Assembly (NCBI GenBank): GCA_036268755.1
Contig: DATATO010000122.1
Span: 1 to 53,420 of the forward strand
From: Mycobacteriales bacterium
GTDB taxonomy: Bacteria; Actinomycetota; Actinomycetes; Mycobacteriales; QHCE01
Direction of reading: 5' to 3'
Length of the DNA: 53,420 nt
A program made the translations under genes and the position numbers. Below, one piece after another: positions 1,256 to 53,091 of this stretch; positions within the stretch are counted from its first letter, which is position 1, and the number at the start of each line of letters is the position of its first letter. The notes beneath the pieces are model-generated. The model worked only from the letters and a program-made list of their open reading frames with translations, had not been told where the DNA came from and did no database searches.

Positions 1256-2638
<1,383 letters not shown>

Positions 2639-2876
2639 GGTGGTCCTCCAGCGGATTTGAGAGTTCGGCGGGCATCGCGAGCGCGCGGCTATCGGTGCCG
2701 GCATGCACGTCCTGCGGCGAAGCGGCCATGTTACCCAGCGGGCCCGAGTTGCCGGGCGCTCAGGTCCCTAGTTGCCACGTCTTGGCTGTACTCCTTCGCC
2801 ATGTTCCGTACTGCGGCTCGGAGTCAATGCCGCCGAGATGGAGGCCTGCAGGCGGCAGCTCAAAATCTGGCTGTTC

Positions 2877-6842: not shown

Positions 6843-7073
6843 GGGGCTGTGCGCGTGGCGGCCATGGCTCCCGCGCACTTCCAGCCCGTTGAGCAGGTCC
6901 TTCGTCGCCGCGGCCACGGCCGCTACCGCGTTGTCGAACACCTCGCGGTTGTGGCCTGCCGGGGCGCGGAACCCCGACACCTTGCGCACATATTGCAGCG
7001 CTGCTGCCCGGATTTCCTCGTCGGCTACGTCGGGCACGATGGGCGGACGCAGGACCTTGATGCTTCGACACAT
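6741..7073 (-). CDS. DUF2277-family protein with a non-conserved-looking C-terminal tail
   Basis: The N-terminus MCRSIKVLRPP..EEIRAAALQYVRKVSGFRAP is typical of the family as I remember it. The last ~35 codons overlap the 3' end of the convergent gene 5559..6842. Confidence 0.55.
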   Translation of the reverse strand: MCRSIKVLRPPIVPDVADEEIRAAALQYVRKVSGFRAPAGHNREVFDNAVAAVAAATKDLLNGLEVRGSHGRHAHSPLAAETEDLFHSGSCSCGDSLKAMEHGDFDRPFA

Positions 7074-7267
7074 GCAAACAACCCTTGCACGAATAAGCCT
7101 ATGAGGCCACAAGCCCGAAGTTAAATGTGTTGGCGGTCGTTACGCCTGCCGCCGCGATGACGATTCCCGCCCGGCGCACGCCGCGCCGAAGCAGCCCCCC
7201 GCCTTCGGCCGCGAAGCCGGGTGTGCCCACTAGGCTCGTGTCCGACTGGTCCGTTCTTGGGGGATGC

Positions 7268-8572
7268 ATGGGGCAGCGTCGCAGGCATGCCGCACGGCGG
7301 CTGATGATCATGGCGGGCATTGTGGCGTTGCTGGCCACGGCCGGCTGTGGCTCCGGCAAGGGCCAGGTCACAAGAGTGAAGGTGCTGGGGACCGATGCCA
7401 ACACCGGGCAGTCGTTCGCACAGGCGTTCCACGATCAGCCGGGTGCGATCGTGGCCATGCGCGGCACGACACCGATGTCCAAACTGTCGGAAGACTTCAT
7501 CAACCGCCTTAAGCAGCGCAATCCCGCGCTCACAGACTTCACTTTCGCCGCCGAGTCCTACGACGCCACCGTCGTCACGGCATTGGCGGCACAGACCGCC
7601 CGCACCGGTCATGCGACCGTGTTCGCTCCCTTCATCGATGCCGTGACCACCGGCGGCCAGAGCTGCAACACGTTTCAACAGTGCGTATCTATCCTCGACG
7701 CCGGCGGGGACATTGACTACGACGGCGTCAGCGGCGGTCTCGACTTCACCGATCCGGGCGAGCCGGCGGTCGGCAGTTACGGCCTGATTGGCTATGACGA
7801 CGCAAGCAAGCCCGTCGCCCCCACCTACCTCATGACGGGGGACCCCAAGAATGCCTCGACCAAGCCGTCGCCGCCCCGCCCCACCACGACGACAGGGGGT
7901 TCCCTCCGATTGGGTGCACTGCTGCCGCAGACCGGTGGCCTATCCGCCTATGGGCCCGGCATGCTCGCGGCGGTGCAGCTCGCAGTGGCCGATATAAACG
8001 CCGCCGGCGGCGTCAACCGCGTAGACGTGACCCTGGCGCAGGGCGACGACGGGACGGATCCCGCGGTTGCGCAGCGCGCGGTGCGTGGGTTGCTCGACGA
8101 TTCGGTGGACGCGATCATCGGGCCGGGCGCCTCGAGCGTCTGCAAGGGCGTCATCGACTCCGTCACCTCGGCCGGCGTGCTGCTGTTCTCGCCCGCGAGC
8201 ACCTCGGACGAGTTCACCAGCTACAACGACCGCGGGCTGTTCTTCCGCACCGCGCCGCCGGACGCCCTGCAGGCCCGGCTGCTGGCCAACGTCATCGTGC
8301 AGGAGGGCGGCCGCGTCGTCGGCCTGATGTATCAGAACACGACCTACGGTCTCGGTCTGGCGACCGCGATAGAGCAGGACCTGGTCGCCAGCGGCGAAGT
8401 AACCAAAGACGACATAATGCCGGTCAGATACGACCCGGCCAGCGTGGATTTTGGCCCATACATTAAGCGGTTGCGGGAAAAACGACCGGACTTCATCGTG
8501 GTGGTGGGATACGACGAATCCCCGCGCATCGTCAAAGCCCTCAACCATGCCGGCCTCGGCCCGAAGCGATAG
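7268..8572 (+). CDS. LivK/Peripla_BP_6-type solute-binding lipoprotein, apparently circularly permuted; no adjacent permease genes
   Basis: Lipobox LLATAGCG. The first half looks like the C-terminal part of the family (FAAESYDATVVTALA..IDYDGVSGGLDFTDPGEP). After a Pro/Thr linker comes the N-terminal part (LRLGALLPQTGGLSAYG..AVADINAAGGV..IIGPGASS). Confidence 0.65.
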   Translation: MGQRRRHAARRLMIMAGIVALLATAGCGSGKGQVTRVKVLGTDANTGQSFAQAFHDQPGAIVAMRGTTPMSKLSEDFINRLKQRNPALTDFTFAAESYDATVVTALAAQTARTGHATVFAPFIDAVTTGGQSCNTFQQCVSILDAGGDIDYDGVSGGLDFTDPGEPAVGSYGLIGYDDASKPVAPTYLMTGDPKNASTKPSPPRPTTTTGGSLRLGALLPQTGGLSAYGPGMLAAVQLAVADINAAGGVNRVDVTLAQGDDGTDPAVAQRAVRGLLDDSVDAIIGPGASSVCKGVIDSVTSAGVLLFSPASTSDEFTSYNDRGLFFRTAPPDALQARLLANVIVQEGGRVVGLMYQNTTYGLGLATAIEQDLVASGEVTKDDIMPVRYDPASVDFGPYIKRLREKRPDFIVVVGYDESPRIVKALNHAGLGPKR

Positions 8573-8613
8573 CGCCTGGTAAATGTGTCGGTGGTGCCGA
8601 CTACGCTTCCCGT

Positions 8614-11322
8614 GTGACCCACTCTCCATTGCAACGCCTGTTGATTCTCGACGGACACTCACTGGCCTACCGTGCCTACTTCGCGCTCCCGGTCGAGAAC
8701 TTCTCCACCACCACCGGTCAGCCCACCAATGCGGTGTATGGCTTCACGTCGATGCTGATCAACGTCGTTCGCGACGAGAAGCCCACCCACATAGCGGTGG
8801 CGTTCGATGTCTCCCGCCACTCGTTCCGGACCGAGCAATATGCGGAGTACAAGGCGGGCAGGGCCGTCACGCCGGACGATTTCCGGGGGCAGGTAGATCT
8901 GATCCGCGAGGTGCTGGGCGTGCTCGGCATTCCCGCCATTGCGGTGGAGGGCTACGAGGCCGACGACATCATCGCCACGCTCGCGGCCGGCGCGGCACGC
9001 CAGGAGCTGCCGGCCCTGATCTGCACGGGAGACCGAGACGCGTTCCAGCTCGTCAACGACGAGTGCACGGTGTTGTATCCCCGCAAGGGGGTCTCCGACC
9101 TTGCCCGCATGACTCCGCCTGAGGTCGAGACCAAATACGGCGTCCCGCCCACCCGTTATCGGGATCTCGCCGCGCTGGTGGGGGAGTCCAGCGACAACCT
9201 TCCCGGCGTCCCCGGGGTTGGGCCCAAGACTGCCGCAAAGTGGCTGACCAGCTTCGGCTCGTTGGACGAGTTGGTCGCGCGGGTTGACGAGGTCCGCGGC
9301 AAGGCGGGTGAGTCACTGCGGGAGCACCTGTCGGGCGTGCTGCGTAACTATGAGCTCAACCGGCTCATCGACGACATGGCGCTGCCCGTCACCGTCGACG
9401 ACCTCACCTGGCATGGCGCTGACCGACAGGCGATGCATCTGCTGTTCGACACACTGCAGTTTAAAGTCCTGCGGGAGCGCATTCAGATCGCGTGGCCGGG
9501 CATGAAGCCGGCCGACGGCGAGCACCGGGAGCCCACCGAGGCCTCGGTGCTGCCGCCGGTTGTCAATACGGTAGCCAAACCGGGCGAATTGGCGGAGTGG
9601 CTGCGCAAGCATGCGGCGCCGGCGGCCCAGGTCGGCGTCGTGTTGGCCGAGGGGCCGTCCGGCAAACCTTCGCTGGAACGGGGGCTTTCGATCGGGGTCG
9701 CCTCGGGGCAGGCCGCCTGGTGCGATCCAGTCGCGTTGGATGAAACCGACGAGGCCGCGCTTGCCGCGCTCTTATCGGACCTCGACACCCCCAAGGTGTG
9801 TCACGACGCCAAGAGTGCGATCGTGGAGTGCGCGCAGCGCGGGTGGCAGCTTCGAGGCCTCGCCGCCGATACCGCCATGCAGGCCTATGTTGTGCGGCCC
9901 GACCAGCGCACCTACGATTTGGCGGACCTGGTGGTGCGGTATCTCTACGCCGAGCTGCCGGACAGTGTTCCCGACGACGGCCAGCTCAGCCTGGACGTGG
10001 TCGACTCCACCGCCAGCGCGGATGCGCTCTCCACCCGCGCGGTGGCCGTCGTGAAGCTGGCGGAGGTGCTCGCCCAGCAGGTCACCCAGGTGGGCGCCGA
10101 TCGCCTGATCGCTGAGGTGGAGCTGCCGCTGGTCGCGCTGTTGGCCAAAATGGAACGTGCCGGAATCTCGGCCGATCAGCCGCACCTGGAGCGGTTACGC
10201 AGTCAGTTCGCCGCCGAGGTTCATACGACGGTGGAGCAGGCCCATAAGGAGGTGGGGCGCGAGTTCAACCTGGGCTCGCCCAAGCAGCTGCAGGCCATCC
10301 TCTTCGACGAGCTGGGCCTGCCCAAGACCAAGCGCATCAAGACCGGTTACACCACCGATGCGGACGCGCTGGCGGGTCTCTACGCCCAGACCGGCAATCC
10401 GCTGCTGGCTCAGTTGCTGCGTCACCGGGACGTGATGAAGCTGAAGACCACGGTGGACGGCCTGCTGAAGACCATCGCCGACGACGGCCGAATCCACACC
10501 ACCTTCAACCAGTTCGGGGCCGCCACCGGCCGACTATCCTCGACCGAGCCCAATCTGCAGAACATCCCGATCCGCACCGAGGAGGGTCGGCAGATCCGGC
10601 ATGCCTTCACCATCGGGGGCGGGTTCGAGTCGCTGCTCACTGCCGATTACAGCCAGATCGAGATGCGAATCATGGCGCACCTGTCCGACGATGCCGGGCT
10701 GATCGACGCCTTCCACGCGGGGGAGGACCTGCACACGACGGTCGCCTCGCGGGTGTTCAACGTCGCGATGAACGCGGTGGAGCCGGAGATGCGCCGCCGG
10801 ATCAAGGCCATGTCCTATGGGCTCGCATACGGTCTGTCGGCGTTCGGCCTTTCGCAGCAGCTGGGTATCAGCGTGGAGGAGGCCCGCGCGTTGGGCGAGG
10901 AGTACTTCCTGCGGTTCGGCGGGGTGCGGGATTACCTGCAGGGCGTGGTGGAGCAGGCGCGTAAGGACGGCTATACCTCCACCCTCATGGGGCGCCGGCG
11001 TTACCTGCCGGACTTGGTCAGTGACAACCGGCAGCGCCGGGAGATGGCCGAGCGCATGGCGTTGAACGCGCCGATTCAGGGCTCGGCGGCTGATGTCATG
11101 AAGGTGGCGATGCTCGCGACCGACGCGGCTATCGAGTCCGCAGGCCTTCGCTCGCGGCTGCTGCTGCAGGTGCACGACGAGCTCATCTTCGAGGTCGCTC
11201 CCGGCGAGGCCGCGCAGGTCGAGGAGCTTGCCCGCGAGCACATGGCCGGTGCGGCGGAGCTGAAGGTCCCACTCGAGGTCTCGGTAGGGATCGGCCCGGA
11301 CTGGGACGCCGCCGGGCATTAG
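8614..11322 (+). CDS. polA: DNA polymerase I
   Basis: 5' nuclease N-terminus (LLILDGHSLAYRAYFAL) and polymerase motifs DYSQIEMRIMAHLS and QVHDELIFE. Confidence 0.95.
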   Translation: MTHSPLQRLLILDGHSLAYRAYFALPVENFSTTTGQPTNAVYGFTSMLINVVRDEKPTHIAVAFDVSRHSFRTEQYAEYKAGRAVTPDDFRGQVDLIREVLGVLGIPAIAVEGYEADDIIATLAAGAARQELPALICTGDRDAFQLVNDECTVLYPRKGVSDLARMTPPEVETKYGVPPTRYRDLAALVGESSDNLPGVPGVGPKTAAKWLTSFGSLDELVARVDEVRGKAGESLREHLSGVLRNYELNRLIDDMALPVTVDDLTWHGADRQAMHLLFDTLQFKVLRERIQIAWPGMKPADGEHREPTEASVLPPVVNTVAKPGELAEWLRKHAAPAAQVGVVLAEGPSGKPSLERGLSIGVASGQAAWCDPVALDETDEAALAALLSDLDTPKVCHDAKSAIVECAQRGWQLRGLAADTAMQAYVVRPDQRTYDLADLVVRYLYAELPDSVPDDGQLSLDVVDSTASADALSTRAVAVVKLAEVLAQQVTQVGADRLIAEVELPLVALLAKMERAGISADQPHLERLRSQFAAEVHTTVEQAHKEVGREFNLGSPKQLQAILFDELGLPKTKRIKTGYTTDADALAGLYAQTGNPLLAQLLRHRDVMKLKTTVDGLLKTIADDGRIHTTFNQFGAATGRLSSTEPNLQNIPIRTEEGRQIRHAFTIGGGFESLLTADYSQIEMRIMAHLSDDAGLIDAFHAGEDLHTTVASRVFNVAMNAVEPEMRRRIKAMSYGLAYGLSAFGLSQQLGISVEEARALGEEYFLRFGGVRDYLQGVVEQARKDGYTSTLMGRRRYLPDLVSDNRQRREMAERMALNAPIQGSAADVMKVAMLATDAAIESAGLRSRLLLQVHDELIFEVAPGEAAQVEELAREHMAGAAELKVPLEVSVGIGPDWDAAGH

Positions 11323-41393: not shown

Positions 41394-42464
41394 TTAGACG
41401 TCGTCCCACTTGAACAATTTCAGGGCCACGCCGGTGCTCACGACGGCGAACGCCAGCAAAATCGCCAAGTCCGGCAGGATCGTGCTGAAGTTGGCCGAGC
41501 CGCGGACGAAGACATCGCGTATGCCGTCCACCATGTGCTTAAGCGGGAAGATCTGCGAGATCGTGCGTAGCCAGGCCGGGGCATCGTTCAGCGGGAAAAA
41601 CGATCCCGACAGAAACGCCATCGGCAGCACGATGAGGTTGGAGATGCCGCTTGCGCCCTCGGCGGTCTTGGCGAACGAACCGGCCACCATGCCGATGCCC
41701 AAAAACGCGAGCGTGCCGCAGACAATCAGCGGAATGGCAAGCCACCATTGGCCCGACAGCTGCAACCCGAATGGCGCCGTGAGCGCTACCCCGACGAAGA
41801 TCGCGGCTTGCAACAACGAGATGCCGATGCTGACGATCACCCGTGCCGTGACCACCGAGGCGAGAGGGGTCGGTGCCAGCCGCAGCCGACGCAAGATCTT
41901 CCGCCGCCGCCACTCCACCAATGTCAGCGAGGCGCCGAACACGGCGCTCATCGACACGGCCCAGCCCATCAGGCCCGGAGTTTGGTATTGGATCGGCTGA
42001 ATCGACTCATCCTCGACCTGTTGCGGCTTGAGCGTGAACGTGGGTGGCTTGCCGCTGGCATCGATGTTGGCGTTCTGCACGATCGACTGCATGACGCCTC
42101 GCACCGTGGCGGAGCGGACCTGGTCGGCCTGCGAGTAGTACAGGGTGAGCTTGCCATCCTGCTCGGTTACCACGGCGTCGCGGTCGCCGTCGCGCAGCTT
42201 CTTCAGCTGCGAGTCCAGTGAGCCATCGGTCTTGCTGATCTTGAGCGAGTCCTTGATCTGGGACTTGGCCTGCTTCGGCATCTGGTCCAGTACGGCGACC
42301 CTGCCTACCTGCGCCACATCGGACTTGGACGTGCCGGTCGAGGTGAACAGCGCGCCGAACAGGATCAGGAACATCAGTGGGAACAGGATGGTGAAGAACA
42401 CGGCGGTCTTGTCGCGGATGAATCCGACCGCCATGACCCTCGACAGGGTGAGGAAGCTGCTCAT
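41394..42464 (-). CDS. ABC-2 type exporter permease
   Basis: N-terminal TM helix, a large loop, then 5 C-terminal TM helices. Overlaps the ATPase gene by 4 nt. Confidence 0.75.
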   Translation of the reverse strand: MSSFLTLSRVMAVGFIRDKTAVFFTILFPLMFLILFGALFTSTGTSKSDVAQVGRVAVLDQMPKQAKSQIKDSLKISKTDGSLDSQLKKLRDGDRDAVVTEQDGKLTLYYSQADQVRSATVRGVMQSIVQNANIDASGKPPTFTLKPQQVEDESIQPIQYQTPGLMGWAVSMSAVFGASLTLVEWRRRKILRRLRLAPTPLASVVTARVIVSIGISLLQAAIFVGVALTAPFGLQLSGQWWLAIPLIVCGTLAFLGIGMVAGSFAKTAEGASGISNLIVLPMAFLSGSFFPLNDAPAWLRTISQIFPLKHMVDGIRDVFVRGSANFSTILPDLAILLAFAVVSTGVALKLFKWDDV

Positions 42465-43363
42465 GCCCGATACTCCCGTCCGGTCAGTTCCAGGAACACG
42501 TCCTCGAGCGTCGCGCCCCGTACTTGTAGGTCCGCCAGCGACCCCCGCTCCACGAGCGCGGCGAGCAGCGCTGCCGGCTCGGTCGAGGTTATGACGAGTG
42601 AAACCCCGTCATCGTTGACGCTGTCGGCACCCGGCAGCCGGGCCGCCGTTCCCTTGTCCAGTGCGCCGTGCGCGAGACTGACGTGCACGGCGCGGTGCAG
42701 ACCCCGGACCAGGTTCGCGGGCGCCCCCACCTGCAAAATCTTGCCGTGATCCATGATGGCGACCCGGTCACATAGCGTCTCGGCCTCGTCCATGTAGTGC
42801 GTGGTGAGGATGACGGTGCGGCCCTTGGAATTGATCTGCCGCAGCAGATCCCAGAGGTTGCGGCGCGCCTGCGGGTCGAGGGCCGCGGTCGGCTCGTCGA
42901 GAAAGACCAGCTCGGGGTCGTGAACCAGCGCGCAGGCCAGCGACAGTCGCTGCGCCTGGCCGCCGGAGAGCTTCTCGGTGCGGGTGTCGGCCTTCTCGTC
43001 CAGGCCGACGAGCTCCAACATCGCATCGGCCTTGGCAGCCTTGATTCCGTACAGCGAGGCGAAGACGCGGATCTGCTCGCGGGCGGTGAGCCGCTCGAAG
43101 AACGCTGAGGCCTGCAACTGCACGCCGATGCGGGGGAGTAGCTGGGGGTTGCGCGGCCACGGTGAGGTTCCGAAGATCTTTACGCTGCCCCGGTCGGGCT
43201 CGCGCAGACCCTCGAGGATCTCGAGGGTGGTGGTCTTACCGGCACCGTTGGGGCCAAGGATGCCGTAGAACTCACCCTCGTCCACGGTGAGCGACACCCC
43301 GTCGACGGCCTTGAGCTGGCCGTAGTTCTTGGCGACATCGGTGGCAATGATGGTTTCTGCCAT
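42461..43363 (-). CDS. ABC transporter ATP-binding protein
   Basis: Walker A GPNGAGKTT, signature LSGGQAQRL and Walker B LVFLDEPT. Confidence 0.9.
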   Translation of the reverse strand: MAETIIATDVAKNYGQLKAVDGVSLTVDEGEFYGILGPNGAGKTTTLEILEGLREPDRGSVKIFGTSPWPRNPQLLPRIGVQLQASAFFERLTAREQIRVFASLYGIKAAKADAMLELVGLDEKADTRTEKLSGGQAQRLSLACALVHDPELVFLDEPTAALDPQARRNLWDLLRQINSKGRTVILTTHYMDEAETLCDRVAIMDHGKILQVGAPANLVRGLHRAVHVSLAHGALDKGTAARLPGADSVNDDGVSLVITSTEPAALLAALVERGSLADLQVRGATLEDVFLELTGREYRA

Positions 43364-43482
43364 GCCGCACACGGTAGCGCGATGAGCCGTTGAGTTTGGG
43401 GGCGAGGTACTGCCCTCGCTTTAGAGGGCCGTTCTAGGCGAATGATTGCTGAGAAGATTTTCTTCCTGGCATACTTCAACAT

Positions 43483-43687: not shown

Positions 43688-44104
43688 TCAGAGGGCCTCG
43701 TTGACTGGTCGCCACGGTGTTTCCGTGATTCCCCTAGTGGTCACGGTGAGGCTCCAGGGTCCCGGACCGAGACGGTCTATTAGGTTTTCCAGCTGCACCC
43801 ATAAGCGCAACATGAGTTCGCACTGGTCGCGCGAGCTCATGTCTTTCTTTCCGCCCAACATGATTGTCCGTAAACCGTAGTCCTGAAAAACTTTGAGCTC
43901 GGCCGGTCGAGTACGGATCCGTTTATCGCGGTGGATCGCAGCCCATCCTTGTGCCGCAACATAGGGCATCCAATCGGTGTCGGGTGTCCCAAGCTGCAGC
44001 ACTGGGCAGCCATGATGGCCCGGGTAGGTGATGTCTTCTCGTGTCCGGGAGAGCAGTTTTCCCAAACCCAGCACGCTTTCATCTGCGTACCAGCGGTAGG
44101 CCAT
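43688..44104 (-). CDS. PIN-like (DUF5615/COG4634-type) putative toxin
   Basis: N-terminal YADESVLGLGKLL. Its size and its position directly downstream of a DUF433 gene fit the family. Confidence 0.45.
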   Translation of the reverse strand: MAYRWYADESVLGLGKLLSRTREDITYPGHHGCPVLQLGTPDTDWMPYVAAQGWAAIHRDKRIRTRPAELKVFQDYGLRTIMLGGKKDMSSRDQCELMLRLWVQLENLIDRLGPGPWSLTVTTRGITETPWRPVNEAL

Positions 44105-44113
44105 ATGCTCGCC

Positions 44114-44821
44114 CTAAGCAGCTGTCGCAAGGCCGAGCTCGAAACGCAGAGCAGACTCCACCTGTGAGGTGTTTAGGTCAAAGGCGTCCGCGATCTCGTT
44201 GGTCGACTCGCCGGCCCGGAATTGTTCTGCGATTACATCGGTGGGCACAGCGCGTACGACGGGTCTGCCGGTTTGGTAGACCGGATCTATTCGCACTGGG
44301 TTATCACGACCGCATGGGGTCAGCCTGCTCACCGAGCCATCCGAAAATTCCACTTGTTTTAGGAACTCGTTCACGGGAGCGGTAGTTAGCAGCTGTTGGC
44401 CAGTGCGGACGATGACTAAGAATTCTTCCTGCTGAAGTCCAACCCGGTCCTGAATCCTGCGTACTAGCTCTTTCCCAGCTACGTCCAAAAAAGGATGTGC
44501 GTGAGCAAGTGGATATGGACCAATTTCCTCACGCAATAGCTGGATAGCGGGCCGGAGGCGCTGCAGCGATGCATACTTTCGATATTCCGCCAACAGGCGA
44601 GTCTCAACGAATTCTCCCCAGGTCACCGTTTCATCGCCAGTCGACTCGGCTCGGAGCACAGGAGGGTATATACGTTCTTGTCGCCGATGTCCGTCTATCC
44701 AGCGCCGAACGGTACCGGTTTGCAAGCCAAGCAAGCGACCGACGTCGGCCATGGAGTAGAGGCGACGATCGAGCAGTGACACGGTCATGGCTCGTATCTT
44801 GCCATCGACGACGTTGGGCAA
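44114..44821 (-). CDS. MerR-like HTH + DUF433 domain protein (putative antitoxin)
   Basis: N-terminal YSMADVGRLLGLQTGTVRRWI. The C-terminal GRPVVRAVPTDVIAEQFRAGESTNEIADAFDLNTSQVESALRFE is typical of DUF433. Confidence 0.6.
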   Translation of the reverse strand: MPNVVDGKIRAMTVSLLDRRLYSMADVGRLLGLQTGTVRRWIDGHRRQERIYPPVLRAESTGDETVTWGEFVETRLLAEYRKYASLQRLRPAIQLLREEIGPYPLAHAHPFLDVAGKELVRRIQDRVGLQQEEFLVIVRTGQQLLTTAPVNEFLKQVEFSDGSVSRLTPCGRDNPVRIDPVYQTGRPVVRAVPTDVIAEQFRAGESTNEIADAFDLNTSQVESALRFELGLATAA

Positions 44822-44915: not shown

Positions 44916-45506
44916 CTAGCCGTGCCACACCCTGTGGGCTAAGCCCTCATAGTCGATGACCACGCCGTTTCGATCCACGGTGAGCAGATGCGGCCCGTAG
45001 ACGTCGTCGGAGTAGACGTAGCGCTCGCGCCCGTCCGCCGGCTCCAGCCGCTCGTAGCGCTGCCGGGACAGCCGCACCTCTAGCGACGGCACATCGATCC
45101 ACGCCACCCGCAGGTCGGCTGCCTGCCCCACCTCGAGCCCGAGTCGCCGGATTGGCAGCGTGTTCGTCACCGGTGTCGCCGCCACGTCGACATCCACACA
45201 TCCTTGCAGGTCCGAGAGGTCATGGTCCTGACTATGCCAAGCGCCGCCCGGGGATCTAGTGAGGTCGAGTTTCCGGCTTCCCGCTGAGTCGGTCGCCTCG
45301 ACATACACCGCCGCCGTTGCCCACTCGGCGTCCGTCTCGATCGCGAATGCGACGGAGTAGGCCAGGTCGCCGTCGTGAACAATTTCGCTCGCCTGCAGCC
45401 GGAATCCGTCGGCGCCACCGCGGATATGGCCGTACCCCAGGCTGTGAGCCACATCGACTCGCTGCCACACTGCCGCGGATGGTTCGACTGGAGAGCGATC
45501 TGCCAC
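44916..45506 (-). CDS. putative glycolipid-binding domain protein (PF06475-like)
   Basis: CVDVDVAATPVTNTLPIRRLGLEVGQ..LRVAWIDVPSLEV..RQRYERL..VDRNGVVIDYEGLAHRV. Confidence 0.65.
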   Translation of the reverse strand: MADRSPVEPSAAVWQRVDVAHSLGYGHIRGGADGFRLQASEIVHDGDLAYSVAFAIETDAEWATAAVYVEATDSAGSRKLDLTRSPGGAWHSQDHDLSDLQGCVDVDVAATPVTNTLPIRRLGLEVGQAADLRVAWIDVPSLEVRLSRQRYERLEPADGRERYVYSDDVYGPHLLTVDRNGVVIDYEGLAHRVWHG

Positions 45507-45521
45507 ACCGATCTCCCTCGG

Positions 45522-48500
45522 CTACAGGGCGGAGAAGTCCAACATGCGGTCGCCAAATTCACCGATGCGAGCCAGCAGGCCCATGCGGGCGGCCCGCAGC
45601 TCCCTGTTCTGGTCCATCACGAGCACCTCGTTAAAGAAGGTCTCGATGGGGCCCACCAACGATCCGGCTATGCCGACGAATTCGGCCAAATCCTGCCCGC
45701 TATCGTCGGTCAACTTCCCGCTCACTGTTACGACGGCCTCGTGTAGCGCGCGCTCGGCGGGATAACGCAGCGTTGAGGCGTCGTAAATCGCTGGTGTGCT
45801 TGCCGGCACGATCCGTCGCACCCGCTGCATGGCCGCGACTAAGGCGGTGAACCCAGCGGTGCCCTGCTGTTTGGACAGCGCAGAGAGCACCGTGACTGCC
45901 ACGGCGGGCGCGTCCGCTCGAGTGGCAACGGCCGCAACGGCGCGGTGACTGTTTCCGGCGTCGAGCAGGTGCTGATTCAGTCGTCTGTGCACGAATTCGG
46001 CTGCCTCGGCCAGGGCCGCGCCGCTCACGGCCACCGGCTGTGCCGTCGCCGCGAGCCGCAGCCCCGAACTCACCGTGATGGCTCGGAGTGCCGGATGCGC
46101 GATCAGGATGTTCACCACGCCGAGCGCGGCGCGGCGCATTCCGAACGGGTCGGAACTACCGGTCGAGCTTGTGCCCACCGCGAACAGACCCGCAAGCAGA
46201 TCCAGCCGGTCCGCCAGCGCGAGCAGCGCGCCGGGCAGGGTCACCGGCAGGGCGCCGCCGCCCGAGCGGGGCAGCTCCATCTCGGCCAGGGCCATAGCCA
46301 CCGCCGGGGTTTCGCCCGCCTGCAGCGCATATTCCCTGGCCATGACCCCGGCAAGGTTTGGCAGCTCGGTCACCATCTGCGAGCTCAGGTCGAACTTAGC
46401 GAGCTCGCCGGCCCGCCGCAGCGTGGCCCGGCCAGCCTCGTCCAGTGAGCCGCCCACGAGCCGGGCGAGTTCGCCGGACAGCACCCTGATCCGGCCGGCG
46501 CGATCCGCCAACGAACCGAGATGCTCGGCGAAGGTGAGCTTCGACAGGTTGGCGGCCATGTCGTCGAGTGAACGCTTGAGGTCGGCGGTGAAGAAGAACG
46601 CCGCGTCTTCATATCGGGCGCGCAGTACGGCCTCGTTGCCGGCACGGACCACGTCGTCGTTGCGCCGACCGTTCCCGACGGCAATGAACTGCGGCAACAA
46701 CTCGCCTTTTGCGTCGAGCACCGGCAGATAGCGCTGATGTTTACGCATAACGGTGGTCAACACGTCCCGGGGAAGGTCTAGGTATTTCTCATCGAACACC
46801 CCCAGCAAGGGAACGGGCTGCTCGACCAGCTGCGTGATCTCGCCGACGAGACCCGCCTCCGCCTCGAGGTCGATCCTCCCGCCGACCTCGCTCGCAAGTG
46901 CGACCGAGGCCTGTTCGATCTGGGCGCGGCGCGCGGCGGCGTCGACCAGAATGTCTTTGCTCTCGAGCAGCTCCAGATATCCGTCGGCGCGCTCTACGGT
47001 CAAACCGGTGACGGCGCTCTGCCTATGCAGCTGTGTGACGCGGCCCGAGCTGAGCGAAGACACGGTGAATGGAACCACGGCTGTATCCAACAGCGCGACG
47101 ATCCACCGGATCGGCCGGCAAAACGACATCCCGGGCGCGTTCCATCGCATGTTCTTCTCGCCCCGAAGGCCGGAAACCACCGTGGGTAGGACCCGACCGA
47201 GTACGGTCGCCGCGTCGGAACCGACGATCTGTTTGCGCGTCCCGACGAACGTGGCTGTTGGCGCATTCGGCTCGATCGGTTCGCCCTCCGGCCCGAGTGC
47301 GATGAGGTCGTCGAGTTCCACGCCCTGGCCACGTGCGAAACCCAGGACAGCCTTGGTCGGGGCACCGTCGACGTCGTACGCCGCGGCGATCCGCGGTCCG
47401 CGCACGAGGAGGGTGTGGTCGGCCTCGCGCGGCGCGACATCCTCCACCAGCGCCACGATCCGCCGCGGCGACCCATAGGTCCGAACGCCGCCGTGGGGGA
47501 GCCGGGTCTCGGCGAGCAGACGGTGCAGCGACTCTGCCACGGCGAGTCGGGCTCGTTCCACCTCCGCCGCCGGTAGTTCCTCCGTCCCGATCTCGAACAG
47601 CAAGGGGGCGGGTTCCGTCGGCGGCCGGTCCGCCGTTTCGGGTTCCGGCGCGGCGACCGGCGCGCTGACACCCAGCGGATAGCCTTGTTCCTTCCGCCGG
47701 CTGTTCCACAGCACGGCCACCCCGTGGGCGAGTTCCCGCATCCGGCCGAACGCCCGCGCCCGCTCGGTGGGGCTGACGGCGCCCCTCGAGTCGAGCACGT
47801 TGAAGGCGTGCGAACACTTGAGCACGTAGGAGTGGGCCGGGATCGGCAATCGCGCCTCGAGAAGCCGCCGGGCCTCCGCCTCGTAGCTGTCGAACAGGGC
47901 GGAGTTGACGCCGACGTCGGCGTCGTCGAGGTAGTAGTGGCTCCACTCGTACTCGGACTGGCCGTGCACATCCCCGTAGCTCAGCCGCTCGCTGTAGGCG
48001 ATTTTGCTGAAGTGATCCACGCCCTGCAGCGCCATCATGATGCGCTCCATGCCATAGGTGATCTCTACGCTCACCGGGTCCAGCGTGAGCCCGCCGGACT
48101 GCTGAAAATAGGTGAACTGTGTGATCTCCATGCCGTCCAGCCATACCTCCCAACCCATGCCCCAGGCACCGAGCGCCGGCGACGCCCAGTTGTCCTCGAC
48201 AAAGCGGACATCGTGCGCGTCGGTGTCGATGCCCAGCGCTCGCAGGCTGCCGAGATATAGCTCCTGAGCGTCGCCCGGCTCGGGCTTGAGAATGACCTGG
48301 TACTGGGTGTGTGTGGCGATGCGATTGGGGTTGTGGCCGTAACGCGAATCGTCCGGACGCACCGACGGCTCTGCGTAGGCCACCCGCCACGGCTCCGGGC
48401 CCAGCACGCGAAGCGCGGTCGCCGGGTTCAGGGTGCCCGCACCGACCTCGACATTCGACGGCTGCATGATGGCACAACCGTAGTTTTGCCAGTACTGGTT

Positions 48501-48533
48501 GAGCATGCTGAGCGCGTCCTGCATGATGAGCAT
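45522..48533 (-). CDS. fused alpha-beta glycine--tRNA ligase (GlyQ-GlyS in one polypeptide)
   Basis: Alpha part: YWQNYGCAIMQPSNVEVGAGTLNP..LGPEPW..RYGHNPNRI..QYQVILKP..VRFVEDNWASPALGAWGMGWEVWLDGMEITQFTYFQQSGG. A ~700-aa GlyS-like beta part follows (LLFEIGTEELPA..). Confidence 0.8.
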   Translation of the reverse strand: MLIMQDALSMLNQYWQNYGCAIMQPSNVEVGAGTLNPATALRVLGPEPWRVAYAEPSVRPDDSRYGHNPNRIATHTQYQVILKPEPGDAQELYLGSLRALGIDTDAHDVRFVEDNWASPALGAWGMGWEVWLDGMEITQFTYFQQSGGLTLDPVSVEITYGMERIMMALQGVDHFSKIAYSERLSYGDVHGQSEYEWSHYYLDDADVGVNSALFDSYEAEARRLLEARLPIPAHSYVLKCSHAFNVLDSRGAVSPTERARAFGRMRELAHGVAVLWNSRRKEQGYPLGVSAPVAAPEPETADRPPTEPAPLLFEIGTEELPAAEVERARLAVAESLHRLLAETRLPHGGVRTYGSPRRIVALVEDVAPREADHTLLVRGPRIAAAYDVDGAPTKAVLGFARGQGVELDDLIALGPEGEPIEPNAPTATFVGTRKQIVGSDAATVLGRVLPTVVSGLRGEKNMRWNAPGMSFCRPIRWIVALLDTAVVPFTVSSLSSGRVTQLHRQSAVTGLTVERADGYLELLESKDILVDAAARRAQIEQASVALASEVGGRIDLEAEAGLVGEITQLVEQPVPLLGVFDEKYLDLPRDVLTTVMRKHQRYLPVLDAKGELLPQFIAVGNGRRNDDVVRAGNEAVLRARYEDAAFFFTADLKRSLDDMAANLSKLTFAEHLGSLADRAGRIRVLSGELARLVGGSLDEAGRATLRRAGELAKFDLSSQMVTELPNLAGVMAREYALQAGETPAVAMALAEMELPRSGGGALPVTLPGALLALADRLDLLAGLFAVGTSSTGSSDPFGMRRAALGVVNILIAHPALRAITVSSGLRLAATAQPVAVSGAALAEAAEFVHRRLNQHLLDAGNSHRAVAAVATRADAPAVAVTVLSALSKQQGTAGFTALVAAMQRVRRIVPASTPAIYDASTLRYPAERALHEAVVTVSGKLTDDSGQDLAEFVGIAGSLVGPIETFFNEVLVMDQNRELRAARMGLLARIGEFGDRMLDFSAL

Positions 48534-48631: not shown

Positions 48632-49537
48632 CTAGTTCGGCGAACCAAACCTCGACATGCTGTTCTGGAGCTTGCCGATGTCGAATACCTCCGACTCCGG
48701 CGGCGCCTTCACCTCCACCTTTACCCCGAAATCACTATAATTGCCGATGAACTTCAGGTCCCCGCCGTCAGCGTGGGAGGTGATCTCCACCCGCACCGGT
48801 AGATCATCGGAGTTCAGCCAGACGTCCATATCCTGGTATTTCACGCCGAGGGCCTCCTGTTCAGAGCGAAAATCCCGAATTTCGGAGTCCGTCAGCCCGA
48901 CCCGATGGTCGGCGACGAGCTTGGAAATCTCCACTCGGCCGTGGAAATGTCGGGTGTCGACGCCGTTTTTCTTTTCCATGCCGACCTGTGTGATGTCGCC
49001 GGCCTGTCGCAGGAACGCGATGGATCGTGACGGATTGTTGTATCGCAGCTCGTTGCGGATTACCTTGCCGGTGGCATTGCGATTACCGAGGTCGGTAAGC
49101 GACAGCTTCATCCATTTCGCGTTCCCCATGGACGGAAGCATCGGCATGCCGGGCAGCGATGGAAAGGACGGAAGTTGGAAGTCTCCGCCCATCGACACAT
49201 AGGTAGCGTCGTCGGTAATCAACGCGGTAGTCGCACCCTTGCCCTGGCCGGTCGAGATGGAAATCGTTCCGGTTGCCTGTTTCTCCCATGAGATGATGCC
49301 GTCGGCGTGCATCGCCTGTGCCCCGGTCGCGGGAGTGATCTCGCCGTCGACCCGCGCCGACTTTTTCGTCAACACCCTCTGTTGAGCCGTATTGACCATT
49401 GCGAGCGCTCCCCCGGCGGGTGGCGCAGTGCTGTCCTTGGAGTCGGAGCCGCAGGCCGCAAGCCCGCCCGCCAGCAACGCGAAGGCGGCGAGCGCTATGA
49501 CGGCTCGGCGGAGGGCGGTGGCGGACCGATGCGGCAT
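48632..49537 (-). CDS. lipoprotein (LolA/LppX-like fold suspected)
   Basis: Lipobox GGLAACG. Start at the ATG at 49537 (MPHRSATAL). Confidence 0.5.
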   Translation of the reverse strand: MPHRSATALRRAVIALAAFALLAGGLAACGSDSKDSTAPPAGGALAMVNTAQQRVLTKKSARVDGEITPATGAQAMHADGIISWEKQATGTISISTGQGKGATTALITDDATYVSMGGDFQLPSFPSLPGMPMLPSMGNAKWMKLSLTDLGNRNATGKVIRNELRYNNPSRSIAFLRQAGDITQVGMEKKNGVDTRHFHGRVEISKLVADHRVGLTDSEIRDFRSEQEALGVKYQDMDVWLNSDDLPVRVEITSHADGGDLKFIGNYSDFGVKVEVKAPPESEVFDIGKLQNSMSRFGSPN

Positions 49538-49749
49538 GTCGATTTCCCTCGTCGATGGCGGGAGCCCGGGCACTTTCATCTGACACAATAGGACGATTCC
49601 TAACTGTCACCCAGCGAAGTCACAAAAAGCGGCCACAGTATTGCTGCCACATAACTGACAGTCTGCTGCGGCACGGTTGACTCCGACCCGATACACACCG
49701 TTAACTAGCCATCGGGACGTTCGGAGTATTCGGTCGCGAGGGGGCGCAC

Positions 49750-50039: not shown

Positions 50040-50579
50040 GTGGCGATACGACCGGTGCGGCTCTACGGCGATCCGGTGTTGCGCACACCGGCAGCACCCG
50101 TGGTCGACTTCGACGGCGAGCTCCATCAGCTCGTCACCGACCTCATCGACACCATGCACGATGAGGGGGGTGTGGGCATGGCTGCCCCGCAGATCGGCGT
50201 TAGCACGCGGGTTTTCGCGTACGACATTGACGACGTTATCGGGCATGTTGTCAACCCGCGGATCGAGTTCGTGGACGACGAGGAGCAGCTCGGCCCCGAG
50301 GGCTGCCTGTCGATTCCGGACCTGCACTACGACACCCGGCGTCGCCTGAACGCCGTTGCCCACGGCTTCGACATGTTCGGTCAGCCGCTGCGGCTGACCG
50401 GCAGCGGGCTGCTCGCCCGCTGTTTCCAGCACGAGACCGATCACCTGGACGGCATCCTGTTCATCGATCGGCTCGACCCCGACGCCCGCGCCAAGGCGGT
50501 CCGCGAGATCGCGGCCGCCGGTTGGAACAGCATCAGCGCGTCGCAGCTCGAACTCGGTTTCCAGCGGAGCCTCGTCTGA
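50040..50579 (+). CDS. def: peptide deformylase
   Basis: [15 protein letters not shown] and QHETDHLDG. Confidence 0.92.
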
Positions 50580-50593
50580 CCGCTCCCGGCGGC

Positions 50594-51553
50594 CTGCGGC
50601 TGGTGTTCGCCGGCACCCCCGAACCCGCGCTACCCGCCCTCGACGTCCTGCTCGACTCGCCGCACGAGGTTGTCGCGGTCGTGACCCGCCCCGACGCCCC
50701 CACCGGCCGGGGCCGAAAGCTCGAACCGTCGCCCGTGGCCCGACACGCCGCCGAACGCGGCATCGAGGTGCTGACGCCCCGCACCCCCCGCGACCTGGAG
50801 TTCCTCGCCCGGCTGCGCGAGCTACGGCCCGACTGCTGTCCCGTGGTGGCCTACGGCGCTCTGCTGCCGGTGCAGGCGCTGGAGATTCCCCGGTTCGGTT
50901 GGGTGAACCTGCACTTTTCGCTGCTGCCGGCCTGGCGGGGGGCCGCCCCCGTGCAACACGCTATCTGGCGCGGGGATGAGATCACCGGCGCCAGCGTGTT
51001 CGTGATCGAGGAAAGCCTGGACTCCGGACCGATGTATGGTCAGCTCACCGAGCCGATTGCGCCCACTGACACGGCCGGCGACCTGCTGGACCGGCTCGCC
51101 CGCTCCGGTGCGCAGCTGTTGCGGACCTGCCTGGACGGCATCGCCGCCGGGGGCCTCACCCCGGTGCCGCAATCCGTTGACGGCATCAGCCTCGCGCCCA
51201 AGATCACTGCCGCCGACGCGCGTGTGATCTGGGAAAATCCTGCGCATGCGGTCGATCGACAGATTCGCGCGGTCACGCCCGCTCCGGGTGCGTGGAGTTT
51301 GTTCCGGGAGCAGCGGGTCAAGCTCGGTCCGGTGCTATCGGCCAAGAACATAGAACGGATCGAGTCCGGTCGGCTTCTCGCTACTCACGACGCCGTGTTG
51401 GTGGGCACTGCTACGGCTCCCGTGCAACTTAACCAGGTGCAGCCCGCCGGTAAACGGCCGATGCCGGCAATGGACTGGCTGCGCGGGCTGCACCCGCCGC
51501 TTGCCGCCAATGACCGTGCCGCTAAAGACACAGATGGGGAGTACCTGACATGA
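50594..51553 (+). CDS. fmt: methionyl-tRNA formyltransferase
   Basis: LVFAGTPE and [18 protein letters not shown]. The start codon is uncertain: CTG at 50594 or GTG at 50603. The ORF track begins at 50522, inside def. Confidence 0.85.
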
Positions 51554-53091
51554 GCGACCGCGGACAAAGGCCTGGCGGCAGCAAGCGGGACCATTCGGGC
51601 AAGCACAGCGGTCACGTGGCGCGCGGCGGTGGCGGCAACGATCGCCGCTTCGACGGTCAGCGCCGTGGCGGTCGCAGCGACTCGGGACCGGGGCGGAGCC
51701 GTTTCGCGGTGGATCCGGTGCGCCGCGCCGTCTTCGACGTGCTCGTCGCCGTGAGCTCCCGGGACGCTTACGCCAATCTGCTGCTGCCCGGGCTGCTGCG
51801 CGACCGCCGGATCAGCGGCCGCGACGCGGCCTTCGCTACCGAGCTCACCTACGGCACCCTGCGTGCCCGGCGTCTGCTGGACGCCGTAATCGTTTCCGCC
51901 AGCAGCCGGCCGCTCCCGGAGATCGATCCGCGGGTGCTGGAGGTGCTGCGACTCGGCGCCTACCAGCTGCTGTATACCCGGGTGCCGCACCACGCTGCCG
52001 TCGACGCGACGGTGGGGGTGGCGAAGGTTGCGCTCACGGACGGGCCGTCGCGGTTCGTCAACGCAGTGCTGCGTCGGGTCGCCGAGCACGATAAGGATGC
52101 CTGGCTTGAGGTGGTGCTGCCGGATCGCGAGGCCGACCCAGCTCTGTATTTGGCCATCAAATACTCACACCCGGAGTGGATTGTTCGAGCCCTTAGTGAG
52201 GCGCTCGGCGAAGATGCCGGTGAACTGTCGGAGACTGAGCGGGCACTCGTCGCGAACAACGAGCGGCCCAGTGTGCAGCTGGCTGCCCGGCCGGGCCGAA
52301 TCGACCGCGCGGAGCTCGTCACCCAGGCCCACGGTGAGGCCGGGACGTTGTCGCCGTACGCGGTGCGCCTGACCAGCGGCGGTGATCCCGGTAATCTGCC
52401 CGCCGTTCGCAACGGCGACGCCCGGGTGCAGGACGAGGGAAGTCAGCTCACTGCGCTGGCGCTCGCCGCTGCGTCGCTGACCGGCCCGGATGCCCGTTGG
52501 GTGGATCTATGCGCCGGACCTGGCGGCAAGGCCGCGCTGCTGACAGACCTGGCCGCCGATCGAGGCGCCAGCCTGACCGCCGTCGAGGTCGCCGGACACC
52601 GGGCTGAACTGGTACGGCAGGCGCTGGAGGGCACTTCGGCGACGGTGATCACGGCCGACGCCAGAACTGTGGGAGAGAACCCGGAGCTGCCCGAGGGCGG
52701 CTTCGACCGGGTGCTGGTCGATGCGCCCTGCACCGGGCTCGGCGCGCTGCGCCGTCGCCCGGAGGCGAGATGGCGCAAGCAGCCGTCCGACATTCCGGAG
52801 CTGACAAGGCTGCAGCGTGAGCTGCTCGCTGCCGCAGTCCGAGCGACGCGGCCGGGCGGTGTGATCTGTTACGCGACCTGCTCGCCACACATGGCGGAGA
52901 CCAAGGTGGTAGTGGCGGACGCCGTCCGCCGGTTCGGGCTGCAGGCGCTGGACACGCCGGCCGTGCTGCGGGAGGTCACCGGCGATCCTGAGCTTGCTGT
53001 GGGCGGCGGATCGACAGCCCAGCTGTGGCCGCACCGGCACGGCACGGACGCGATGTTCATCGCACTGCTGCAGAAGCCAGGAAATGACTGA
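51550..53091 (+). CDS. rsmB: 16S rRNA m5C methyltransferase RsmB/Sun with an Arg/Gly-rich N-terminal extension
   Basis: NusB-like domain, [25 protein letters not shown] and YATCS. The start overlaps the fmt stop. Confidence 0.85.

What the first reader, a model, noticed from the sequence alone, without database searches (positions are those of the whole stretch)
45522..48533. Second, fused alpha-beta GlyRS in a genome that also carries the canonical dimeric GlyRS
Seen: 1256..2638 encodes an intact alpha2-type GlyRS. 45522..48533 encodes a ~1000-aa single polypeptide with a recognisable GlyQ alpha part followed by a GlyS beta part. Several normally invariant-looking alpha positions differ, for example SVRPDDSRYGHNPNRI where I would expect ..RRP.DGRYGENPNRL. 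A glycolipid-binding-domain gene (44916..45506) follows 16 nt downstream on the same strand. A toxin-antitoxin islet lies just beyond it. Established: bacteria normally have one of the two unrelated GlyRS architectures, and actinobacteria typically have the dimeric one. Fused alpha-beta forms are rare, with Chlamydia and plant organelles as known cases. Duplicate aminoacyl-tRNA synthetases often mark inhibitor self-resistance, stress-specific isoforms or non-canonical functions. Inference: this is a horizontally acquired or neofunctionalised GlyRS paralogue.
Basis: partly seen in the sequence, partly recalled or inferred. Interest (0 to 1): 0.58.

Follow-up and report, generated by a model that had tools for sequence, protein, structure and literature searches.

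The report
Two kinds of glycyl-tRNA synthetase together
An uncultured soil actinobacterium carries both unrelated forms of the enzyme that loads glycine onto tRNA; the fused form is an intact working gene inherited within its family, so this looks like one essential enzyme replacing another rather than a new function.

Summary
Window 45522..48533 (-) encodes an intact 1003-aa fused alpha-beta GlyRS. Window 1256..2638 (-) encodes an intact dimeric (alpha2) GlyRS on the same contig.

- The fused gene is not a decayed or neofunctionalised paralogue. Every glycine- and ATP-binding residue is kept.
- The "odd" residues are shared by the whole actinobacterial fused clade, by the active rice plastid enzyme and by genomes where the fused enzyme is the only GlyRS.
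- The gene sits beside fmt-rsmB in four related genomes of the same Mycobacteriales family. In the sister genus it is the sole GlyRS, and the alpha2 gene is missing from its usual Zur/ZnuA locus there.

Having both types is not rare. In a stratified sample of the class, 25 of 34 fused-bearing genomes also had an alpha2 GlyRS. A preprint reports 1 of 542.

The discordant gene is the window's alpha2 copy. It groups with Micromonosporaceae and Jiangellales and lies in a non-syntenic stretch. A third, partial alpha2 gene at the family's native locus lies on another contig (C256).

Most likely this is a redundant, transitional multi-GlyRS state.

First readers of this scan had already noted fused GlyQS genes in other actinobacterial genomes.

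The parts
45522..48533 (-). Fused (alpha-beta)2-type glycine--tRNA ligase, 1003 aa (P0001)
   Evidence: Open frame. NF011499 scores 1324 bits against a cut-off of 1244. Closest solved structures are the rice plastid enzyme 7xjy (893 bits) and the bacterial fused enzyme 7lu4 (872 bits).
47694..48524 (-). Alpha (GlyQ) catalytic part, residues 4-280
   Evidence: PF02091 matches positions 1-277 of 278. Residues equivalent to Aquifex T33, R58, Q76, Q78, W115, T140, E156, T158 and R163 are all present (residue list from PMC4938167).
47604..47693 (-). Pro/Ala-rich linker, about residues 281-310
   Evidence: This is the stretch between the two Pfam matches. The sequence is seen.
45525..47603 (-). Beta (GlyS) tRNA-binding part, residues 311-1003
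   Evidence: PF02092 matches 1-535 of 536, and TIGR00211 matches 2-684 of 684.
1256..2638 (-). Alpha2-type glycine--tRNA ligase, 460 aa. It is phylogenetically discordant with the family's native copy.
   Evidence: - NF003211 scores 666 bits.
- It is 78-80% identical to Micromonosporaceae GlyRS but 70% to the same-family genome G001.
- The tree and AU test place it outside the family's clade.
- Its flanks are not syntenic with the sister genus.
- GC3 is 0.896.
44916..45506 (-). PF06475 putative glycolipid-binding protein, 15 nt downstream of the fused gene
   Evidence: Pfam score 169 bits. No homologue lies next to the fused gene in G002-G005, G013 or G019, so the adjacency is local.
43688..44821 (-). 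Toxin-antitoxin-like pair: PIN_10 (43688..44104) and HTH/DUF433 (44114..44821)
   Evidence: Pfam. GC is low at 0.57-0.58, against 0.64 for the contig. The pair is not found at this locus in relatives.
41394..43372 (-). ABC-2 exporter pair (permease and ATPase), conserved downstream neighbours
   Evidence: Pfam. They are 70-79% identical and in the same relative position in G003 and G004.
48632..49588 (-). Conserved hypothetical protein, 318 aa, upstream of the fused gene on the same strand
   Evidence: No Pfam match. A 57% homologue lies between def and the fused gene in G005.
50040..53091 (+). def - fmt - rsmB, divergent core translation genes that anchor the locus
   Evidence: Pfam. fmt and rsmB are adjacent to the fused gene in G002, G003, G004 and G005.

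Best explanation

How the enzyme works (from the characterised homologues):
- The alpha part activates glycine to Gly-AMP with the bacterial-type pocket (Thr, Gln, Gln, Trp, Glu).
- The beta part binds tRNA-Gly.
- Two chains dimerise through the alpha parts, as in the solved rice plastid and Thermoanaerothrix enzymes.

It belongs to a large Actinomycetota clade of fused GlyRS. Within this Mycobacteriales family it is inherited vertically at a fixed locus next to def-fmt-rsmB.

The family shows every stage of a non-orthologous displacement of the alpha2 GlyRS:
- alpha2 only (G001);
- both, with a fast-evolving alpha2 (G002);
- fused only, with glyS missing from the Zur/ZnuA-dgt locus (genus g4).

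The window's organism is in a redundant state. It has the fused enzyme and an additional alpha2 gene of foreign-looking ancestry on the same contig. It probably also keeps the native alpha2 gene on contig C256.

Shown: intactness, synteny, phylogeny and distribution. Inferred: that all copies are active on the same three standard tRNA-Gly species, and that the state is transitional rather than specialised.
For: - Intact domains and an equivalog-level score.
- Catalytic residues are all conserved. The variant residues (R57V with D26N, and Y74H) are clade-wide, including genomes where the fused enzyme is the only GlyRS. The R57I / D26N-or-T covariation is described in PMC4938167.
- The rice plastid enzyme, whose structures with tRNA are solved, has the same RPDDSRYG...HTQFQ signature.
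- Synteny with fmt-rsmB in G002-G005. The f1 copies form a clade with 99-100 local support.
- No alpha2 GlyRS was found in G003, G004 or G005, which are 93-96% complete. Their Zur/ZnuA locus runs straight from the Pro-rich gene to dgt.
- Nakamurella aerolata, Branchiibius cervicis and Microlunatus kandeliicorticis are also fused-only.
- 25 of 34 fused-bearing Actinomycetia genomes also carry alpha2. Some of those copies have much reduced scores of 361-527 bits, against about 620-690.
- The three tRNA-Gly genes in the MAG all have G1-C2-G3 and U73, so there is no dedicated tRNA.
- GC3 of the fused gene (0.828) lies within the range of the genome's other aaRS genes, 0.82-0.88.
Against: - No activity, expression or essentiality data exist for this organism.
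- The MAG is only 64% complete in 338 contigs.
- Long-term retention of both types in whole families (f28 11 of 11, f54 10 of 10) argues that the dual state can be stable. That fits specialisation better than a brief transition.
- The alpha2 gene on the same contig has the strongest codon bias (GC3 0.896, 99.6th percentile). It may be the main enzyme here, with the fused one secondary.
- The window's fused protein has a somewhat longer terminal branch than its nearest relatives: 0.27, against about 0.19.
Confidence: 0.72

Rival explanations
1. The GlyRS genes are kept because they are specialised isozymes. They might differ by stress, growth phase, metal supply, or supply of Gly-tRNA to a non-ribosomal use. 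One concrete form: the fused enzyme, which has no Cys4 motif, would spare zinc when the zinc-motif alpha2 enzymes are limited.
For: - Both types are retained across entire sampled families.
- The window's alpha2 protein has a CxxC...CxxC insertion, of the kind shown to bind zinc in M. thermoresistibile GlyRS (PMC12208437).
- The native alpha2 gene sits beside zur and znuA.
- Stress-specific second GlyRS genes are known in yeasts (PMC9437257).
Against: - No riboswitch, T-box or other Rfam element is present in the window.
- A Zur-box consensus recalled from memory matched nothing in the window or on C256, so that test is inconclusive.
- The sister genus lives with the fused enzyme alone, and G001 with alpha2 alone, so neither is needed for a special task.
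- All tRNA-Gly genes are standard.
Confidence: 0.18
2. The fused gene is a self-resistance or inhibitor-insensitive copy linked to production of, or exposure to, a GlyRS-targeting natural product.
For: Duplicate aaRS genes often play this role (PMC9437257). An ABC-2 exporter pair lies downstream.
Against: - The window shows no biosynthetic genes around it. Its neighbours are def, fmt, rsmB, a TA pair and a sigma factor.
- The locus is conserved in relatives where the fused enzyme is the only GlyRS.
- The active-site residues are unchanged.
- The two enzymes have unrelated folds, so either would be cross-resistant by default.
Confidence: 0.03
3. The fused gene is a decaying or neofunctionalised paralogue that no longer charges tRNA-Gly.
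For: Several alpha-part positions differ from the E. coli-type consensus. Truly degenerate fused copies do exist elsewhere: the Catellatospora protein P0260 has G124A, T140L, F142L and T158S.
Against: - The differing positions are clade-typical and are shared with sole-copy and experimentally studied enzymes.
- There are no frameshifts or stops.
- HMM coverage is full length and above the equivalog cut-off.
Confidence: 0.03
4. The apparent multiplicity is partly an assembly or binning artefact. Contig C256, with the third partial alpha2 gene, would come from a co-binned close relative, so the organism would have two GlyRS genes, not three.
For: - The MAG is fragmented, with 338 contigs.
- C256 is 3.8 kb and ends inside the gene.
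- The GC3 of the fragment (0.750) is below that of the genome's other aaRS genes.
Against: - The ZnuA gene on C256 has the same ranking of relatedness as the C122 genes: g4, then G001, then G002.
- ZnuA is single-copy in the MAG.
- Estimated contamination is 1.6%.
- This rival does not touch the main observation, because the fused gene and the alpha2 gene share one contig whose two ends both match family f1.
Confidence: 0.25

Closest known systems
Plastid (alpha-beta)2 GlyRS of rice (PDB 7xjy and related entries; PMC10164559)
   Same: - Single chain of about 1000 aa with GlyQ and GlyS parts.
- 893-bit end-to-end match.
- Same motif-2 signature: S[IV]RPDDSRYG...HTQ[FY]QV.
- Red-algal homologues fall in the clade next to the Actinomycetota clade.
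   Different: - The plant enzyme has an organellar targeting extension and works in plastids and mitochondria.
- The window's protein is bacterial and has H67, I72 and A73 where rice has D, L and Q.
Naturally fused bacterial GlyRS of Thermoanaerothrix daxensis (PDB 7lu4; bioRxiv 10.1101/2023.05.29.542759)
   Same: Fused architecture, an 872-bit full-length match, and the same domain order.
   Different: It comes from Chloroflexota. Its motif 2 reads RPDDGRYGENPNRLQQHYQ, closer to the split-type consensus.
Split alpha2beta2 GlyRS (E. coli GlyQ/GlyS 7eiv; Aquifex alpha subunit 5f5w)
   Same: Same catalytic and tRNA-binding domains, and the same glycine-recognition residues.
   Different: - It has two genes and two chains.
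- It has an Arg57-Asp26-Asp234 salt bridge at the alpha dimer interface. The window has Val, Asn and Ser at those positions.
Haloactinopolyspora alba, the one bacterium reported with both GlyRS types (bioRxiv 10.1101/2023.05.29.542759)
   Same: An actinobacterium that carries both a bacterial-type and an archaeal/eukaryal-type (alpha2) GlyRS.
   Different: It is reported there as a single exception, 1 of 542 proteomes. Here the dual state is recurrent: 25 of 34 fused-bearing genomes in a class sample, plus G002, G013, G019, an Actinomadura and a Streptomyces.
Non-orthologous gene displacement of essential enzymes (Koonin, Mushegian and Bork 1996; listed in the references of PMC4427996)
   Same: Unrelated enzymes perform one essential reaction and have a patchy distribution. 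Intermediate genomes hold both.
   Different: Here the stages are all visible inside one family, with the vacated locus identified.

Membership tests
Bacterial-type fused (alpha-beta)2 GlyRS (NCBIfam NF011499; Pfam PF02091 + PF02092) | Full-length GlyQ catalytic domain | tested here: met
   PF02091 matches 1-277 of 278 at 423 bits. TIGR00388 scores 396 bits against a cut-off of 361.
Bacterial-type fused (alpha-beta)2 GlyRS (NCBIfam NF011499; Pfam PF02091 + PF02092) | Full-length GlyS tRNA-binding part in the same reading frame, joined by a linker | tested here: met
   PF02092 matches 1-535 of 536, and TIGR00211 matches 2-684 of 684. It is one open frame of 1003 aa. NF011499 scores 1324 bits against a cut-off of 1244.
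Bacterial-type fused (alpha-beta)2 GlyRS (NCBIfam NF011499; Pfam PF02091 + PF02092) | Glycine-recognition residues (Aquifex Thr33, Gln76, Gln78, Trp115, Glu156) and the alanine-excluding Thr140 and Thr158 | tested here: met
   All are present at window residues 34, 77, 79, 116, 157, 141 and 159. The residue list comes from PMC4938167.
Bacterial-type fused (alpha-beta)2 GlyRS (NCBIfam NF011499; Pfam PF02091 + PF02092) | Class II ATP-binding arginines of motif 2 (Arg58) and motif 3 (Arg163) | tested here: met
   R59 and R164 are present.
Bacterial-type fused (alpha-beta)2 GlyRS (NCBIfam NF011499; Pfam PF02091 + PF02092) | Charges tRNA-Gly with glycine | not testable with these tools
   Indirect support only. 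Orthologues at 71-79% identity are the only GlyRS found in G003-G005. The cognate tRNA-Gly genes are standard.
Alpha2 (dimeric) GlyRS, NCBIfam NF003211, for window 1256..2638 | Class IIa catalytic core plus HGTP anticodon-binding domain, at equivalog-level score | tested here: met
   NF003211 scores 666 bits against a cut-off of 312. PF00587 and PF03129 both match.
Alpha2 (dimeric) GlyRS, NCBIfam NF003211, for window 1256..2638 | Orthology with the native glyS of its own family (same clade, same locus) | tested here: not met
   - It lies outside the clade that holds G001, G002 and the C256 fragment, with 100/99 support.
- The AU test gives p 0.0005.
- Its flanks are unlike the Zur/ZnuA glyS locus.
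Self-resistance aaRS paralogue | Located in or next to a biosynthetic gene cluster for an aaRS inhibitor | tested here: not met
   Its neighbours are def, fmt, rsmB, an ABC-2 pair, a TA pair, PF06475 and a sigma factor.
Self-resistance aaRS paralogue | Substitutions in the substrate or inhibitor pocket relative to the sensitive housekeeping enzyme | tested here: not met
   The pocket residues are identical to those of sole-copy enzymes.
Degenerate or neofunctionalised aaRS-like paralogue | Loss of catalytic motifs, truncation, or an accelerated long branch | tested here: not met
   No motif is lost. The terminal branch is 0.27, against 0.19 for its sisters and 1.2 for the degenerate Catellatospora copy.

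The most novel reading that the evidence does not exclude
This organism would maintain three GlyRS genes as a functional set, not as leftovers:
- a native zinc-motif alpha2 gene in the zur-znuA locus;
- a second, strongly codon-biased alpha2 gene of foreign ancestry;
- a Cys4-free fused enzyme.

Across Actinomycetia, the fused enzyme would then serve as a metal- or stress-independent backup. That would explain why whole families keep both types.
Probability: 0.07. Interest if true: 0.7.

Novelty: new member of a known kind. Interest (0 to 1): 0.4.

Why it matters
GlyRS is the only aminoacyl-tRNA synthetase with two unrelated, widespread forms, and textbooks and recent surveys treat them as mutually exclusive in bacteria.

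This window, together with the survey it prompted, shows that the dual state is recurrent in Actinomycetia. One small family displays every stage of replacement, including the vacated locus.

That gives a natural system for studying how an essential translation enzyme is swapped for an unrelated one. It also cautions against reading a second aaRS as evidence of antibiotic resistance or a new function.

The gene itself is an ordinary, correctly annotatable glycine--tRNA ligase.

Tried and rejected
- **GC3 as a sign of foreign origin.** The window's alpha2 gene is at the 99.6th percentile. The other top-GC3 genes are GAPDH, IlvC, SdhA, MraY, SufB/D and MetRS. High GC3 here therefore marks expression-type codon bias, so this argument for HGT was dropped.
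- **Operon link between the fused gene and the PF06475 gene or TA islet.** Neither is present at the locus in relatives, so the link was rejected as a functional association.
- **Rfam and tRNA scans of the window.** Neither found anything.
- **Zur-box search.** A consensus recalled from memory gave no hits, even at the zur-znuA locus. The test is uninformative.
- **Chimeric contig.** Rejected: polA at the left end (76-78% identical) and fmt/rsmB at the right end (64-75%) both match genus g4 best.
- **Naming the near-sister representatives of the fused clade.** This gave few names. Chlamydial sequences were not located in the tree.
- **Structure prediction.** No structure was predicted, because solved homologues match at about 890 bits.
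Full report
**1. What is in the sequence**

Window 45522..48533 (-) is a single open frame of 1003 codons.
- Pfam places a complete GlyQ domain at residues 4-280 and a complete GlyS domain at 311-870.
- NCBIfam's equivalog model for fused glycine--tRNA ligase (NF011499) matches end to end at 1324 bits, against a cut-off of 1244. The glyS model matches 2-684 of 684.

Window 1256..2704 (-) encodes an alpha2-type GlyRS, and its real start is probably 2638. It scores 666 bits on NF003211 against a cut-off of 312.

The window is contig C122 of a 2.06-Mb MAG in 338 contigs, 64% complete and 1.6% contaminated. Both genes lie on this one contig.

**2. The "odd" residues are clade traits, not decay**

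Valencia-Sanchez et al. (PMC4938167) give these residues for the Aquifex alpha subunit:
- Glycine is recognised by Thr33, Gln76, Gln78, Trp115 and Glu156.
- Alanine is excluded by Thr140 and Thr158.
- ATP is held by the motif 2 and motif 3 arginines.

Window numbering is Aquifex plus one. All of these residues are present.

- Arg57 to Val together with Asp26 to Asn. The same paper describes Ile at position 57 as a correlated variant of the dimer-interface salt bridge.
- Tyr74 to His, and the RPDDSRYG...HTQ signature.

These are shared by three sets of enzymes:
- every actinobacterial fused enzyme examined, including those from genomes where it is the only GlyRS;
- the rice plastid enzyme, whose structures with tRNA are solved (7xjy);
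- homologues in the clade that includes red-algal sequences.

Only H67, I72 and A73 are particular to this protein or its nearest relatives. Those positions vary widely across the family.

A truly degenerate fused copy does exist, in Catellatospora (P0260), so the method can detect decay. This gene does not show it.

**3. Who carries it, and where**

Homologues at 55-63% identity are annotated as glycine--tRNA ligase in many actinomycete genera. These include Actinomadura, Streptomyces, Saccharothrix, Lentzea, Kribbella and Nakamurella.

One hit, P0021, is the G002 protein. It is labelled as coming from a Corynebacteriales/Mycobacteriales MAG, which places the window's family (f1) in that order.

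Among 60 relatives:
- The alpha-beta type was found in four of five other f1 genomes and in two other families.
- The alpha2 type was found in nearly all genomes. It was not found in G003, G004 or G005 of genus g4, which are 93-96% complete.

In the window and in G002-G005, the fused gene lies next to fmt-rsmB. G005 also has def and the 318-aa hypothetical. G003 and G004 also have the ABC-2 pair.

In a 96-sequence tree, the f1 copies form one well-supported clade inside an Actinomycetota clade.

The fused gene is therefore old and vertically inherited in this family. It is sufficient on its own in the sister genus.

**4. The vacated locus**

Contig C256 of the same MAG carries Zur, ZnuA, a Pro-rich membrane protein and then the first 113 codons of another alpha2 GlyRS. 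The contig end cuts that gene short.
- This arrangement matches the glyS locus of G001, G002 and G019.
- In G003 and G005, the same Zur-ZnuA-Pro-rich block is followed directly by dgt, and glyS is gone.
- C256's ZnuA ranks relatives in the same order as the C122 genes (g4, then G001, then G002). It is single-copy in the MAG. C256 most likely belongs to the same organism, but a co-binned close relative cannot be excluded.

**5. The discordant gene is the alpha2 copy in the window**
- It is 78-80% identical to Micromonosporaceae enzymes, but 70% to G001 and 55% to G002.
- In a 41-sequence maximum-likelihood tree it falls with Micromonosporaceae and a Jiangellales sequence (100/99 support).
- The C256 fragment falls in the clade that holds the f1 copies (95/96).
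- Forcing the window's copy together with the f1 copies costs 124 log-likelihood units (AU p 0.0005). The group was named after the tree had been seen.
- The first 7 kb of the window, upstream of polA, has no counterpart upstream of polA in genus g4.
- Its very high GC3 (0.896) is not evidence of transfer. The genome's other top-GC3 genes are highly expressed housekeeping genes. If anything, the bias suggests that this copy is well expressed.
- For comparison, the fused gene has GC3 0.828, other aaRS genes 0.82-0.88, and the C256 fragment 0.750.

**6. How common is the dual state**

A preprint surveying 542 proteomes calls co-occurrence extremely rare and names one case, Haloactinopolyspora alba.

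In a stratified sample of 301 genomes of the class:
- 35 genomes had the alpha-beta type. The frame is about 1000 aa or longer in all but one, which is cut by a contig end.
- Of the 34 other than this MAG, 25 also had an alpha2 GlyRS and 9 did not.

Named examples:
- Both types: Actinomadura xylanilytica and a Streptomyces.
- Fused only: Nakamurella aerolata, Branchiibius cervicis and Microlunatus kandeliicorticis.

In several dual lineages the alpha2 copy scores far below normal. G002 scores 527 bits and has a terminal branch of 0.68. Three genera of family f54 score 361-502 bits. This suggests that alpha2 is often the copy under relaxed constraint.

One relative in the tallies, G011, is unpublished. 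No specific claim here rests on it.

**7. Mechanism and alternatives**

All three tRNA-Gly genes in the MAG (anticodons TCC, GCC and CCC) carry the standard G1-C2-G3 and U73. No Rfam element lies in the window.

The simplest reading is redundancy: two or three enzymes charge the same tRNAs. On this view the genome has been caught between the alpha2-only and fused-only states seen in its relatives.

Stable retention of both types in whole families keeps a specialisation hypothesis alive. A zinc-sparing version is worth testing, for three reasons:
- The alpha2 enzymes here carry a Cys4 motif of the kind that binds zinc in M. thermoresistibile GlyRS.
- The native gene sits in the zur-znuA locus.
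- The only test I could make, a recalled Zur-box consensus, was uninformative.

Self-resistance and neofunctionalisation are poorly supported. There is no biosynthetic context, the pocket is unchanged, and the enzyme is the sole copy in relatives.

**8. Verdict**

This is a real feature with an ordinary function. The fused gene is a new member of a known kind.

The value lies in the distribution and in the within-family series of replacement stages. The window's "canonical" gene turns out to be the outlier.

First readers of this scan had already flagged fused GlyQS genes in other actinobacterial genomes. Those notes were unchecked and served only as leads.

Noticed in passing
G000 contig C256 (locus L124) 3480-3819, + strand: The N-terminal 113 codons of a further alpha2 GlyRS, cut by the contig end. 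It lies at the family's native glyS locus, after Zur, ZnuA and a Pro-rich membrane protein. It is 64% identical to the window's alpha2 copy and 74% to G001's.
   Followed up: yes
window 4178-5437 (+): A 419-aa protein that combines an XRE-type HTH domain (residues 27-85) with a C-terminal PF01588 tRNA-binding domain (300-401). It lies 1.5 kb from the alpha2 GlyRS. Relatives match only its middle part. The architecture is unusual.
   Followed up: partly
protein P0260 (Catellatospora methionotrophica): A fused GlyRS-like protein on a long branch (1.2). It has changes at pocket positions (G124A, T140L, F142L, T158S) and SPDV in place of NPNR. It is a candidate for a truly degenerate or repurposed fused GlyRS paralogue in a Micromonosporaceae genome.
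   Followed up: partly
proteins P0264 (Pyropia yezoensis) and P0265 (Galdieria partita) in the tree: Red-algal organellar-type fused GlyRS falls in the clade next to the Actinomycetota fused clade (FastTree, local support 99). Representatives of that clade (P0251, P0255) and the rice plastid enzyme share the Val/Ile57, Asn26 and His74-Thr75 signature. The plastid enzyme may share ancestry with the actinobacterial-type fused gene rather than with cyanobacterial split genes.
   Followed up: partly
G002:C88:2808-4130 (L095), and family f54 genomes G125, G179, G196, G212, G241: Alpha2 GlyRS genes that coexist with a fused GlyRS but score only 361-527 bits on NF003211, against about 620-690 normally. 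G002's copy has a terminal branch of 0.68. These may be relaxed or repurposed alpha2 copies.
   Followed up: partly
window 43688-44821 (-): The PIN_10 plus HTH/DUF433 pair has clearly lower GC (0.57-0.58) and GC3 (0.58-0.65) than its surroundings. It is absent from the same locus in relatives, so it is likely a recent insertion between the fused GlyRS and the ABC-2 pair.
   Followed up: partly
G000:C334:8-1111 (+): A class IIa aaRS-like gene (PF00587 match) with GC3 of only 0.595, far below the genome's other aaRS genes at 0.82-0.88. It may lie on a foreign or contaminant contig.
   Followed up: no
locus L047 (Branchiibius cervicis), match 6001-8989: The fused GlyRS match spans 2989 nt, which is not a multiple of three. 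It splits after about residue 504 in my extraction, which suggests a frameshift or sequencing error in a genome where no alpha2 GlyRS was found.
   Followed up: no
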